NCBI GenBank assembly: GCA_045631585.1 | Contig: JAZQUX010000190.1 | Coordinates: forward strand, 1-50,546 | Source of the DNA: Eubacteriales bacterium | GTDB lineage: Bacteria; Bacillota; Clostridia; Oscillospirales; CAG-272 | Direction of reading: 5' to 3' | DNA length: 50,546 nucleotides | In this document: piece by piece, positions 23,588 through 34,921 of the stretch | How the letters are laid out: each line of letters begins with the position of its first letter | Position numbering within the stretch: position 1 is the first letter of the stretch | Notes under the pieces: model-generated | The model's input: the letters and a program-made list of their open reading frames with translations, nothing else | Told to the model about the DNA's origin: nothing | Databases searched by the model: none | Program-made: the position numbers and the translations under genes

Positions 23588-26500
23588 TTATTTGGTTTTA
23601 CCGAAGTAATCTTCTTTGTAATCCGCTCGGATTTCTGATTTAATTTTGCTTATAAGTTCTTTGTAATACAAAACATCAGCATCGTCTTGAGTCATTTCCC
23701 CTGAACGCACCTTGTTTGCAAGGCTTCTTTTATAGGCGTTGGTAGCTGTCACGCCTGCGTTTATGTACTTTGTCATATTAGATGAGGAAGACTTTATTTT
23801 TGAAGCTTTTGCCTTGTCAAAGTTATTACCGAACACAGCCAAAGCTACATATTCGCTTGCATCGTTCATACTCTTCATCATCCCCGAATAGTCGTGGTAA
23901 CTCATCGGCTTTTTTTCTTTGATGCCGTCCGATGTTTGCTGAAGGATATAAGACTCGGCTTTGGTGTAGAACAAGTCGTCATTCTGTGTCTTGTCGTACA
24001 TTTCCGCAATAAGCTCTTCACCCCTTGAAAGAGTTCCATCGTATTTTTCGGCTCGTTTCTCAAGGTCTTTCTCAAAGCCTTCTGCATTCTTCTTGTCGCC
24101 ATCGGCTATAGCCTTTTGCGCTTGCTCAATGAAGTTATTCTTCTGTTTCCAATAAACATAGGTAACTCCGTTCACTCCCGTGGGATTTCCTTTGTTGATG
24201 CTGTTTGCTTCATCCTCTTTTGACTTTACTATCTGTATTGCAGTTGCTTCGGCAGAGCTTTCTGCATTGCCTTTTACCACATCAAGCATAGCATATTTGG
24301 TTTCATCGAGTGCTTGTTTATATACATTCATAACAATACTCGATTTTTCTGAATCGGTCATCTCGGAATAAACGGTATCCTGATTTTTGAGGACGATTTC
24401 GTCATTGAAAAGCCTTGACAGCATATCAAATCGTCTTTCACCAAGCATAACAGCTGCATCCTTGTACTGTTCGGCATTCATGTAGTAAGTGTTTCCGCTG
24501 ATTGTAATATCCTCATACATCTTCTTCGGGAACACATCTCCGTTGCCCGTGCTTTCGTAAAGTCTCAAAATCTCGTTATCAACATCTGTGTAATTGTCCT
24601 CGGAGTAATAACCGGGAGATATAAGATTCTCTGCAAGTCTCTCACCGACACCGCCATAGTTTTCAATTCTACCCCAAAGGTCAACAGATGCTTGATAATT
24701 GCCTACCTCGAAGGGGAGCTTTGAAGCAATCGAGCCGTACAGTTCCTGAACAAATTCGGGAGTTTCGCTGTTCTTGTTGATAAAGTAATAATTCTTCTTT
24801 TGGGGAGAAGCTATTCTCTTTATCTTACCACCGAGAGTAGGGAAATGTTGTAAAATAAAGTTTGAGAGTATGCTTTCGATTGCGGCTGTAGGAGCACCAT
24901 TGTCGGAATAGTTGTCCGACTCAAGGAAGTCACGCAAGCCGTCAAGCATCGAAAGACCGATAACAGGCTCGGTAATAGCACCTATTGAGTCAGCAAAGGC
25001 TTTAAAGTTCAATCCTTCTTCCTCGATAGTCTTATAGAACTGTGCACCGACAAGGAACGGTATCGAAGCAGGCGTAGCCCAATCCATCGTGTATGACTTT
25101 CCATCACGGAAATTGATAGCATAGCTCTGCTCGCCTACAAGCTTGTCGAAGCGTTTTTTGTCTTTGTCCTCGTCATCGCCTGCGGAAACAACTCCTGCTC
25201 TTGCGAGTACGGCACCGAGAATGAAAAGCCCTGTGCCCGTGAATGTCCTTGCAACATCGGCAATAATATCATTACCCGACACAGCTTTGCCTCTTGACTT
25301 CTCAACAACATCATAAGCGGTTTTGAATACACCGAGAGGAGAGGTTTCAAGCGATTGCTTTGTGATATTCATAGGAGTCTTGGTGAACGGGAACAATCCG
25401 CCAAGAGCAATGCCGCCTACCTTTTCACCGAGATTGCCCTTCATAAGTTTAGCCCTTGTTCTCGATATTGCTTCAGCAAGTGCATTCGCCTCACGGAATG
25501 TAGCTCTCTTTGCTTCCTTGATAGCAAGCTCTCTTATCTTTGAAAGCTCCTCGGAGGAAATGTTATCCACATCGAGTTTTCTTGCTGTAATAATTTTCTT
25601 TAATGCAGACCTGTAACTTACTCCAAGGAAAAGCTCATCTTCCTTTTCAAGCGCCCAAGAGTTAAACTTGTTTAGCATCTCGGGAGCAAATCCGAGTGCG
25701 TTACCGACAACCTTTGTTACCTTCCCTGCGTTTTTTGTAGGACGAAGTATTCTTCTGTATTTGTCTATGTCGGAAACGATATTGCCGTATTTACCTTCGC
25801 CCGAAGTAAGCATATCCTTCATGAGTTCCCAATCGTTCTTGGCAAATTCTGCGGTTTTTTTGTCAGCCCACTTCAAGGTCTTTGTTCTGTCCTCTTGTTT
25901 TATAAATATGGGCTGAATTGCTCCTTCGATAGTGTTATTTATCTTTGTAACAATAAGGTTGAGTATGTTGCCCGCAAAGTTTCTCATATGCGTTGTGGGA
26001 TTAAACAGCATAGACAAATAACGCCAAGCATCCTCCTTCTCCCAAAATGTAGACGGAATCTGCTCACCTATATCTTTGCAAAGCTCCTTGTAAAGTTCCT
26101 CTCGCTTTGCCGCATCCTTTTCAGCAAAGTATCTGTTCGCAAGGTCTTCGTCAATCTTAACCTTCTTGGCTCTTTTTTCTCCGAACTTTGCAACAAGCTC
26201 GTCATTGATTTTGTCAATAGACCTTTCAAGATAGTAAAGCGTTCCATCGGGAGACATCTTCTTAAGCATACTCATTGCCTGAATAGCCTGACCTGCTATA
26301 GTTGCTTCGGCAGAAATGTCAGCAAGAATTTTCTCGGCATTCTTAAAGTCACCATTCTGTGCACATTGATTGTAAAGCTCGATGCCAAACGCAAAGTTTT
26401 CCTTACTTATAGCACCACCCGAATGAGCAATAAAATCCCAATGACGAAGTGCATCCTCAAAGCCGTGATACTCAATAAGTTCCTTTGCTTTTTGTTCTGC

Positions 26501-34921: not shown

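What the first reader, a model, noticed from the sequence alone, without database searches (positions are those of the whole stretch)
23588..34921. Giant 3,777-aa multidomain (polyvalent-type) late protein taking about 22% of the genome
This is one uninterrupted minus-strand ORF of 11,334 nt with an AAGGAGG RBS. It is co-transcribed with a 500-aa ORF from its own late-motif promoter (36485-36516) and closed by a strong terminator (23539-23574).

Read directly from the translation:
- a K/E-rich N-terminus
- a Gly/Ala-rich hydrophobic block from aa 493
- the zincin motif HELFH at aa 1197-1201
- GHEGRHR (ParB/sulfiredoxin-like) at aa 2289-2295
- an FYHGT...GYDGIKITN...QMKSA block (aa 2423-2690) resembling the ADP-ribosyltransferase module of phage/ICE polyvalent proteins
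- a TM-like helix near aa 3226

The genome has no tail-tube, sheath or tape-measure gene. The simplest reading is therefore a virion-internal protein co-injected with the DNA that carries several counter-defence enzymes, in the way N4 packages its 3,500-aa vRNAP and P1 packages Dar proteins. I cannot name a described protein with this architecture, and well over half of its length has no motif I can assign.
Basis: partly seen in the sequence, partly recalled or inferred. Interest (0 to 1): 0.88.

Follow-up and report, generated by a model that had tools for sequence, protein, structure and literature searches.

The report
Giant phage polyvalent effector protein
One intact 3,777-residue gene fills 22% of a temperate, short-tailed-type gut phage genome; it is a new, unusually large member of the known "polyvalent protein" class, which phages are thought to pack into the virion and inject with their DNA.

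Summary
ORF 23588-34921(-) is intact at 3,777 aa, with an AAGGAGG RBS, a terminator on each side, and a 38-nt motif also found upstream of two virion operons. All quoted motifs sit where stated.

Intact relatives of 3,557-4,137 aa exist in independent assemblies. dN/dS against the closest one is 0.05-0.37 wherever the two align, so the ORF is not an artefact.

It belongs to the polyvalent-protein class of Iyer et al. 2017:
- The gluzincin signature HExxH...ExxxD is invariant in nine homologues.
- The ART-PolyVal domain is split by a roughly 130-aa insert. It keeps H2425 and D2659, but the strand-2 Tyr is Phe.
- Homologues carry LPD3, LPD13, LPD23, LPD38, PBECR and MuF_C domains.
- The ParB/Srx call stays inconclusive.

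Three large conserved modules have no model. These are the N-terminal 890 aa, a confidently folded 580-aa domain D with no PDB neighbour, and an 830-aa helical C-terminal module H found in at least 222 IMG/VR contigs and at least 114 GTDB species.

The centre of the gene is swapped between near-identical relatives. Virion packaging is inferred only, from the shared promoter motif, the gene's position and the phi24B gp47 precedent. Verdict: a new member of a known kind, of moderate interest.

The parts
23588..34921 (-). Giant ORF, 3,777 aa plus stop
   Evidence: Purifying selection against orthologue P0092.
34928..34934 (-). Shine-Dalgarno AAGGAGG, 6 nt before the ATG
34172..34921 (-). N-terminal K/E-rich module (aa 1-250). 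A separate 309-aa ORF in relative L006.
32252..34171 (-). N-terminal region aa 251-890, including the Gly/Ala-rich block (about aa 493-760). Function unknown; only three homologues found.
30857..32251 (-). Zincin (gluzincin-type) metallopeptidase module, aa 891-1355. HELFH at 1197-1201; E1262/D1266 in EIAAD.
   Evidence: Invariant S-HEL-H and E...D in the homologue alignments. hhalign lands on the HExxH of P1 DdrB's metallopeptidase, E=0.003.
29117..30856 (-). Domain D, aa 1356-1935. Conserved alpha/beta module with no family model. Conserved Cys 1442, 1484 and 1487.
   Evidence: 21 homologues. AF2 pLDDT 86, pTM 0.84. No PDB neighbour. BFVD A0A6J7VNV5 at E=1.6e-22.
28397..29110 (-). Module E, aa 1938-2175; possibly LPD3-like
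   Evidence: Homologues P0083-P0090. Sub-threshold LPD3 hits over this region in P0083 and P0086.
27788..28396 (-). Module F, aa 2176-2378, with invariant GHEGRHRM-AL. ParB/Srx-like by motif only.
26777..27679 (-). ART-PolyVal ADP-ribosyltransferase, aa 2415-2715, split by a roughly 130-aa insert. H2425, F2446 (in place of Tyr), D2659.
   Evidence: Pfam halves at 25.9 and 14.5 bits. Custom profile at 33.7 and 16.9 bits. Alignment.
24272..26764 (-). Module H, aa 2720-3550. Conserved helical C-terminal module.
   Evidence: 60 homologues. AF2 pLDDT 73. No PDB neighbour. At least 114 GTDB species and at least 222 IMG/VR contigs.
25187..25243 (-). The only TM-grade hydrophobic helix (aa 3227-3245), inside module H and conserved in the family
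23591..24271 (-). C-terminal tail, aa 3551-3777. Shared only with the other giants.
34937..36439 (-). ORF500, the conserved upstream partner gene. Function unknown.
   Evidence: Homologues lie directly upstream of the giants in L003-L006. No hit in Pfam, PHROG, PDB or GenBank phages.
36484..36521 (-). Late-promoter-like 38-nt motif, one of three copies
36534..36555 (-). Terminator that closes the preceding lysis/regulator unit
23544..23577 (-). Terminator after the giant ORF
469..506 (-). Second copy of the late motif, upstream of the packaging genes across the window junction
43947..43984 (-). Third copy of the late motif, between the major capsid gene and the next structural genes

Best explanation
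The gene encodes a phage polyvalent protein in the sense of Iyer et al. 2017. It is transcribed late together with ORF500, from a promoter motif shared with the two virion operons.

Most likely mechanism (inferred, not shown):
1. The protein is packed inside the capsid of a short-tailed temperate phage of gut Oscillospirales, probably Acutalibacteraceae.
2. It is expelled through the tail with, or ahead of, the DNA.
3. A conserved scaffold handles incorporation, exit and possibly membrane insertion. The scaffold is the N-terminal 890 aa plus the C-terminal helical module H with its single hydrophobic helix.
4. The internal gluzincin peptidase cuts the chain into separate pieces.
5. The released pieces act on the newly infected cell. 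They are the ART domain, the ParB-like module, the LPD3-like module and the unknown enzyme-like domain D.

Shown here: the ORF, its regulatory signals, the domain content, the family, and the swapping of the central cassette. Inferred: packaging, ejection, self-cleavage and the targets.
For: Class membership:
- ART-PolyVal matches both halves of aa 2415-2715.
- HExxH plus ExxxD is invariant across nine homologues at 21-64% identity. The profile aligns to the metallopeptidase motif of P1 DdrB.
- Proteins sharing domains D, E, F or H carry LPD3, LPD13, LPD23, LPD38, PBECR1/3/5, MuF_C, ART-PolyVal or a methyltransferase.

Late, virion-linked regulation:
- The 38-nt motif occurs only three times: before the packaging genes, after the capsid gene and before ORF500.
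- The unit has its own RBS and terminators.

Conserved layout in relatives:
- A 492-656-aa ORF500 homologue sits upstream of the giant in all four loci. The giant closes the late region in L004 and L005, next to the integrase in L005 and to the terminase in L004. L003 and L006 are short contigs.

Scaffold and cassette pattern:
- Against P0092, aa 1-1939 are 88% identical and aa 2643-3777 are 95% identical, while aa 1940-2640 are replaced or rearranged. dS ranges from 0.01 to 1.8 along the gene, and dN/dS is below 0.4 throughout.
- Modules occur as separate genes or in shorter proteins elsewhere. Examples are the 309-aa N-terminal ORF in L006, D+H in P0010, and H-only proteins of 700-1,000 aa. 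Cutting the chain into working pieces is therefore plausible.

Precedents:
- phi24B gp47 is a 2,811-aa LPD-bearing protein found in virions by mass spectrometry and invisible in cryo-EM (bioRxiv 10.64898/2026.04.10.717836). Its gene sits at the same genome position, after a 421-aa ORF.
- P1 transcribes its Dar proteins from a late promoter together with holin genes.
Against: - No experiment and no head-targeting domain (MuF, portal fusion) links this protein to the capsid. MuF_C in relatives is an RNase-type domain, not the head-binding part.
- The gene lies after the lysis cassette in its own unit, a position also typical of accessory 'moron' genes.
- The giant shows no sequence similarity to phi24B gp47 (BLAST, phmmer, A1-A3 profiles, hhalign with module H), and the whole-protein PDB search found no chain at all. 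A1-A3 are the profiles of domain D, module H and module F. P1 DdrB was compared only with the module F profile (no match) and the zincin profile (a weak match at HExxH).
- The ART strand-2 Tyr is Phe, so activity is uncertain.
- The ParB assignment is unproven.
- 3,777 aa is a very large cargo for a capsid that holds 50 kb of DNA.
Confidence: 0.6

Rival explanations
1. It is chiefly a structural ejection or conduit protein. In a short-tailed phage of a thick-walled host, the long helical and Gly/Ala-rich parts extend the tail channel across the wall and membrane, as the T7 and P22 ejection proteins do. The enzyme-like domains would then be accessory, for example wall- or envelope-directed, rather than anti-defence effectors.
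For: - Module H is helical, always C-terminal, and carries one conserved hydrophobic helix.
- There is no tape-measure-sized gene elsewhere. The largest other ORFs are 671, 621 and 552 aa.
- Large terminal ORFs preceded by a 420-500-aa ORF recur in podovirus-type genomes: phi24B and Arthrobacter phage Jasmine.
- The phi24B authors propose this role for gp47.
Against: - No similarity to any known ejection, internal-core or tape-measure family in Pfam, PHROG, NCBIfam or the PDB.
- The central third is exchanged between close relatives, which fits effectors better than a length-determining structure.
- ART and LPD domains are intracellular-conflict domains according to Iyer et al.
Confidence: 0.2
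2. It is not a virion component. It would be an accessory (moron-like) gene product made in the lysogen or released at lysis, acting as a toxin, a superinfection-exclusion factor or an inter-bacterial weapon.
For: - It is a separate unit with terminators on both sides, lying between the lysis and lysogeny modules.
- A relative with D and H modules (P0010) sits in a bacterial context where the only phage-type gene called is a small terminase.
- Iyer et al. note that hosts can capture such proteins.
Against: - The promoter motif is the one used by the virion operons.
- No N-terminal hydrophobic segment of the kind a signal peptide would need; the start is K/E-rich.
- The pairing with ORF500 at the end of the late region is conserved across phage contigs.
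- A giant of the same class is present in phi24B virions.
Confidence: 0.12
3. The giant ORF is an artefact: a misassembly, or several genes fused by sequencing errors.
For: Related modules are separate genes in some relatives, and one relative is split at a scaffold gap.
Against: - Intact ORFs of 3,557-4,137 aa are seen in independent assemblies from different sources.
- IMG/VR ORFs reach 4,220 aa.
- dN/dS is below 0.4 along the whole length.
Confidence: 0.02

Closest known systems
Polyvalent proteins of phages and conjugative elements (Iyer, Burroughs, Anand, de Souza, Aravind 2017, PMC5512222), e.g. the nine-domain Acetonema longum prophage protein WP_004096050.1
   Same: - Many unrelated domains in one polypeptide.
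- Zincin metallopeptidase and H-Y-D-type ART as hub domains.
- LPD domains in relatives.
- Late-gene context in a portal/terminase phage.
   Different: - Only the ART is recognised by a curated model.
- About 2,300 aa lie in three conserved modules (N, D, H) that no Pfam, PHROG or NCBIfam model matches.
- A fixed N- and C-terminal scaffold surrounds an exchangeable centre.
- No MuF, helicase or methylase.
Stx phage phi24B gp47 (vb_24B_48; 2,807 aa in HM208303)
   Same: - Giant LPD-bearing protein with HExxH motifs in a temperate podovirus.
- Last gene of the late region, next to the integrase on the circular map, preceded by a 421-aa ORF.
- Shown by proteomics to be in virions.
   Different: - No detectable sequence similarity to the giant or to ORF500.
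- Gram-negative host.
- Different LPD set.
Phage P1 Dar system (DarB 2,255 aa; DdrB = ParB-like domain plus metallopeptidase)
   Same: - Head-packaged anti-restriction proteins transcribed from a late promoter next to lysis genes.
- The DdrB metallopeptidase motif aligns with the giant's zincin core.
   Different: - In P1 these are separate proteins; here they are one chain.
- P1 is a myovirus.
- The ParB-like module does not align to DdrB.
Phage N4 virion RNA polymerase (about 3,500 aa)
   Same: A single giant protein packed in a podovirus capsid and injected. It also contains a zincin domain according to Iyer et al.
   Different: No family model or solved chain of any kind matched apart from ART-PolyVal, so there is no sign of a polymerase. 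There is no D-x-D-type catalytic motif beyond one chance DEDKD.
8-kb terminal ORFs of Clostridium clostridioforme LM41 prophages phi1 and phi4 (PMC11318856)
   Same: - Gut Clostridia prophages.
- ORF at the 3' end taking about 20% of the genome.
- LPD3 similarity.
   Different: They are smaller, at about 2,700 aa.

Membership tests
Polyvalent proteins (Iyer et al. 2017) | Two or more domains of unrelated biochemical activity in one polypeptide | tested here: met
   Zincin signature plus ART-PolyVal plus at least three further conserved modules.
Polyvalent proteins (Iyer et al. 2017) | Encoded by a phage or conjugative element, close to late/virion genes | tested here: met
   Terminase, portal, capsid and tail-fibre genes lie on the same strand. 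The late motif is shared. Relatives have the same layout.
Polyvalent proteins (Iyer et al. 2017) | Draws on the shared domain pool (MPTase, ART, LPDs, PBECR and others) | tested here: met
   Homologues of its modules carry LPD3, LPD13, LPD23, LPD38, PBECR1/3/5, MuF_C and ART-PolyVal above Pfam cut-offs.
Polyvalent proteins (Iyer et al. 2017) | Delivered into the host together with the DNA | not testable with these tools
   Needs virion proteomics or injection assays. The only evidence is the precedent of phi24B gp47.
ART-PolyVal (PF18760) | Score above the Pfam gathering threshold (31.2 bits) | tested here: inconclusive
   The whole protein scores 22.1 bits. The two halves score 25.9 and 14.5 bits either side of a roughly 130-aa insert. 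Their sum exceeds the cut-off, but no single hit does. A custom profile gives 33.7 and 16.9 bits.
ART-PolyVal (PF18760) | H-Y-D catalytic configuration (His in strand 1, Tyr in strand 2, Asp in strand 5) | tested here: inconclusive
   H2425 and D2659 are present. The Tyr position aligns to F2446.
Zincin-like metallopeptidase of polyvalent proteins | HExxH helix plus a downstream Glu ligand, conserved across the family | tested here: met
   S-HEL-H and E1262...D1266 are invariant in 7-9 homologues.
Zincin-like metallopeptidase of polyvalent proteins | Profile-level match to a recognised member | tested here: inconclusive
   No Pfam or PDB hit. hhalign to the P1 DdrB metallopeptidase motif gives E=0.003, 24 columns, 46% identity.
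ParB/sulfiredoxin superfamily (including DdrB-like ParB) | Profile match to the ParB/Srx core with the conserved Arg of the GxxR helix | tested here: inconclusive
   GHEGRHRM-AL is invariant in five sequences. There is no Pfam ParB hit; only PFIN at E=0.039 in 2 of 5. hhalign lands on GERRFRAAKLAG of Spo0J (E=0.014) and on GGCHRYAAY of sulfiredoxin (E=0.14). No match to DdrB or to the PDB.
Tape-measure or tail-fibre repeat proteins | Match to a tape-measure or fibre family, or internal repeats | tested here: not met
   No such hit in Pfam, PHROG or NCBIfam. No internal repeats. The gene lies after the lysis cassette.
N4-like virion RNA polymerase | Similarity to a single-subunit RNA polymerase core | tested here: not met
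   No hit to any PDB chain at E<=1. No polymerase family in Pfam or PHROG.

The most novel reading that the evidence does not exclude
The conserved N-terminal region and the 830-aa C-terminal module H, together with ORF500, form a previously undescribed capsid-to-cytoplasm delivery scaffold of short-tailed temperate phages of gut Clostridia. Effector modules are swapped into it by recombination, so it would be a phage counterpart of polymorphic-toxin systems. Domain D would be a new metal-dependent enzyme family delivered in this way.
Probability: 0.3. Interest if true: 0.7.

Novelty: new member of a known kind. Interest (0 to 1): 0.5.

Why it matters
- A fifth of this phage's coding capacity goes to one protein, and about 60% of that protein matches no described family.
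- Its C-terminal module occurs in hundreds of gut phage and prophage sequences, including prophages of cultured strains, so the question can be tested in the laboratory.
- If these proteins are injected, they are a large unexplored pool of enzymes that act in the first minutes of infection of dominant gut Firmicutes.
- Domains D and H would be candidates for new curated families.
- The fixed-scaffold, swappable-centre pattern would show how phages exchange early-acting effectors.

Tried and rejected
Searches that found nothing useful:
- The whole-protein homologue search timed out and was replaced by three segment searches.
- Megablast and tblastn against GenBank phages gave only three weak partial hits. 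No described phage carries module H.
- PADLOC gave one chance-level Cas8b hit. NCBIfam and PHROG gave nothing.

Structure searches:
- Foldseek of domain D against the PDB gave only E>0.2 partial beta/alpha-barrel matches: GDPD, TIM, QueE and a glycyl-radical enzyme. I do not assign a function from these.
- The BFVD GP88 and Gp37/Gp68 hits at E 0.3-6 are likewise too weak.
- Foldseek of module H gave only generic helical-repeat matches.

Ideas rejected:
- A radical-SAM reading of domain D. The Cys pattern is C-x41-C-x2-C, not CxxxCxxC.
- A tape-measure reading of the Gly/Ala block. There is no model hit, no repeats, and the genome position is wrong.
- Homology to phi24B gp47. BLAST, phmmer, the A1-A3 profiles of domain D, module H and module F, and hhalign with module H found nothing above chance.
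- A link between the ParB-like module and P1 DdrB; none was found.

Still unexplained:
- ORF500 was searched in Pfam, PHROG, the PDB and GenBank phages with no result.
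Full report
**1. Observation**

The minus-strand ORF 23588-34921 is real. 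It has an ATG start, 3,777 codons and no internal stop. AAGGAGG lies 6 nt before the ATG. A hairpin with a 15-bp stem and a T-run follows the stop.

ORF500 (34937-36439) ends 15 nt upstream of the giant's start. It is preceded by a terminator (36555-36534) and a 38-nt motif (36484-36521). That motif recurs only at 469-506 and 43947-43984. In all three places the shared GTAAATGAAAA...TGTGGTAGCATT...TATAAA lies just after a T-run and before an RBS.

There is one TM-grade hydrophobic helix, aa 3227-3245. The Gly/Ala-rich block is compositionally real but not TM-like. The window ends repeat (1-218 = 50329-50546), so the gene is 22.5% of a genome of about 50.3 kb.

**2. The phage**

PHROG and Pfam identify these genes:

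| Gene | Coordinates |
|---|---|
| Large terminase | 48928-50274 |
| Portal | 46352-48367 |
| Major capsid protein | 44071-45267 |
| Beta-propeller / 'internal virion protein'-like | 41437-42999 |
| Tail-fibre-like | 38324-39859 |
| M23 peptidase | 37704-38339 |
| Small TM ORFs | 36793-37780 |
| 68-aa HTH / sigma-region-4-like protein | 36564-36770 |
| Tyrosine integrase (+ strand) | 19292-20353 |
| Primase/helicase | 9161-11026 |
| C5 DNA methylase | 6956-8614 |

- No other ORF exceeds 671 aa, and only five ORFs lie between the capsid and fibre genes. The virion is therefore most likely short-tailed.
- The nearest cultured portals (24% identity) are those of Arthrobacter phage Jasmine and its relatives. 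Jasmine is annotated with a tail spike and no tape measure.
- The phage is temperate. The ORF500-giant unit lies after the lysis cassette and before the lysogeny module.

**3. Not an artefact**

- An exhaustive search with aa 1-1200 found intact giants of 3,702 aa (86% identity), 4,137, 3,613, 3,853 and 3,557 aa.
- Four of them were located on contigs from independent samples. Each is preceded by an ORF500 homologue at 33-98% identity. In two of these loci the giant closes the late region: next to the terminase in L004 and next to the integrase in L005.
- Against the closest relative, dN/dS is 0.05-0.37 in every alignable 250-codon window. dS varies from 0.01 to 1.8 along the gene, which indicates mosaic recombination.
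- There are no internal repeats.

**4. Domain map**

| Module | Residues | What was found |
|---|---|---|
| N | 1-890 | K/E-rich start and Gly/Ala-rich block. Only three homologues among 1.84 billion representatives. In L006 the first 250 aa are a separate 309-aa gene. |
| Zincin | 891-1355 | S-HEL-H and E1262-x3-D1266 invariant in 7-9 homologues at 21-64% identity, which is the gluzincin signature. hhalign's best alignment to P1 DdrB lands on its metallopeptidase HExxH (E=0.003). No Pfam or PDB hit. |
| D | 1356-1935 | 21 homologues with many invariant polar residues and three conserved Cys. AF2 pLDDT 86, pTM 0.84. No PDB neighbour (best E=0.2, partial beta/alpha barrels). One BFVD phage protein at E=1.6e-22. 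No model in any library. |
| E | 1938-2175 | Ten homologues. Sub-threshold LPD3 hits over this region in two of them. |
| F | 2176-2378 | GHEGRHRM-AL invariant. ParB/Srx-like only by weak, register-correct hhalign (Spo0J E=0.014, sulfiredoxin E=0.14) and a weak PFIN hit (Pfam names it a plasmid fertility-inhibition factor). No match to DdrB or the PDB. |
| ART | 2415-2715 | Pfam ART-PolyVal matches both halves (25.9 and 14.5 bits; cut-off 31.2) across a roughly 130-aa insert. A profile built from clear family members gives 33.7 and 16.9 bits. H2425 and D2659 are kept; the strand-2 Tyr aligns to F2446. |
| H | 2720-3550 | 60 homologues in the protein search. Helical AF2 model (pLDDT 73). No PDB neighbour. 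Contains the single hydrophobic helix. |
| Tail | 3551-3777 | Shared only with the other giants. |

**5. Family and distribution**

- Proteins that share D, E, F or H carry LPD3, LPD13, LPD23, LPD38, PBECR1/3/5, MuF_C, ART-PolyVal or a methyltransferase above Pfam cut-offs. This is the domain pool that defines polyvalent proteins (PMC5512222).
- Module H occurs in at least 114 GTDB species representatives. Nearly all are gut Clostridia, chiefly Oscillospirales, and several are cultured strains. The closest (98%) is an Acutalibacteraceae MAG.
- Module H also occurs in at least 222 IMG/VR contigs, mostly 20-56 kb. It is always at the C-terminal end of ORFs of about 900 to 4,220 aa, most commonly 1,700-2,600 aa.
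- Between this protein and P0092, aa 1-1939 are 88% identical and aa 2643-3777 are 95% identical, but aa 1940-2640 are replaced or rearranged. The other giants carry LPD38, or LPD23 with PBECR3, in the centre. The pattern is a fixed scaffold with an exchangeable centre.

**6. Mechanism**

Shown here:
- A late-type regulatory signal shared with the virion operons.
- A conserved gene pair, lying at the end of the late region where enough context is available.
- A conserved metallopeptidase signature.
- An ART of the polyvalent clade.
- Modular exchange of the central cassette.

Inferred: the protein is packed in the capsid and ejected with the DNA. The zincin cuts it into pieces, and the pieces modify host components. 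The fact that its modules exist as separate genes in relatives makes cutting plausible.

Precedents:
- phi24B gp47 is a 2,811-aa LPD-bearing protein that is abundant in virions by mass spectrometry yet invisible in cryo-EM. Its authors propose it as an ejection protein.
- In HM208303 that gene (2,807 aa) is the last late gene, adjacent to int on the circular map, and follows a 421-aa ORF.
- Arthrobacter phage Jasmine has a 431-aa ORF followed by a 1,803-aa ORF at the end of its structural genes.
- P1 transcribes darA and ddrB from a late promoter together with holin genes.
- The giant and ORF500 show no similarity to the phi24B pair in direct comparisons. Jasmine did not appear among the tblastn hits in the phage collection. 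These are analogues by position and class, not demonstrated homologues.

**7. Rivals**

- A mainly structural conduit role fits the helical scaffold and the lack of any tape measure. It does not explain the swapped enzymatic centre.
- A non-virion accessory role fits the self-contained unit next to the lysogeny module. It is contradicted by the shared late motif, the lack of an N-terminal hydrophobic segment, and the phi24B precedent.
- An assembly artefact is excluded for practical purposes.

**8. Novelty**

- The class has been known since 2017.
- Giant terminal ORFs taking about 20% of the genome have been noted in C. clostridioforme prophages.
- A giant of the same class has now been found in virions.
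- What is new here is this architecture, its size near the top of the family's range, and three large, well-conserved, widely distributed modules (N, D, H) plus ORF500 that no Pfam, PHROG, NCBIfam or PADLOC model matches.
- I file it as a new member of a known kind, with moderate interest.

**9. Limits**

- The N-terminal 890 aa, modules E and F, and ORF500 were not modelled.
- The short-tail morphology is inferred from gene content.

Noticed in passing
window 469-506, 36484-36521, 43947-43984 (minus strand): A 38-nt motif (GTAAATGAAAA...TGTGGTAGCATT, followed by TATAAA) occurs exactly three times. Each copy lies after a T-run and before an RBS. It looks like the phage's late promoter or activator site.
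   Followed up: partly
window 36564-36770 (-): A 68-aa protein with weak HTH_23, GerE and sigma-70 region 4 hits sits directly upstream of the ORF500 promoter motif, before a terminator. It may be the late-gene regulator that reads the motif.
   Followed up: no
window 1-218 and 50329-50546: The window ends are a direct repeat, but at 96% identity, not 100%. This is unusual for either a circular-assembly overlap or true terminal repeats. An ORF, probably the small terminase, appears to run across this junction.
   Followed up: no
window 36793-38339 (-): A lysis-type cassette lies between the tail-fibre gene and ORF500: an M23 peptidase (37704-38339) followed by three or four small ORFs with hydrophobic helices.
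   Followed up: partly
window 19292-20581 (+): A tyrosine integrase lies on the opposite strand. It is followed by tandem AAATGCAAAACGAA-type repeats at 20325-20581, which could be an attachment or regulatory region.
   Followed up: no
window 6956-8614 (-): A 552-aa protein with a C5 cytosine DNA methylase domain in its N-terminal part. The C-terminal 350 aa are unassigned.
   Followed up: no
L002 1743-13177: In a related temperate phage contig, a 2,794-aa ORF and a 1,068-aa ORF (P0022) are separated only by a scaffold gap of Ns. They are probably one gene of about 3,800 aa that gene callers missed.
   Followed up: partly
L168/L169 (phi24B, HM208303 47852-57571) and L170 (Arthrobacter phage Jasmine 21072-27801): Unrelated short-tailed phages show the same arrangement: a 420-430-aa ORF followed by a very large ORF at the end of the structural genes. 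This may be a general but unrecognised feature of this virion type.
   Followed up: partly
window 21550-23497 (-): The three ORFs just downstream of the giant (155, 157 and 254 aa) have homologues downstream of the H-module gene in 6-18 IMG/VR loci. Their function is unknown.
   Followed up: no
P0092 aa 1925-2180, P0093 aa 2235-2490, P0051: In the insert-bearing ART subfamily, several members have Lys in place of the strand-5 Asp (GYKGV instead of GYDGI). P0092 carries this variant alongside a second, canonical ART-PolyVal, so the variant may be an inactive or repurposed copy.
   Followed up: no
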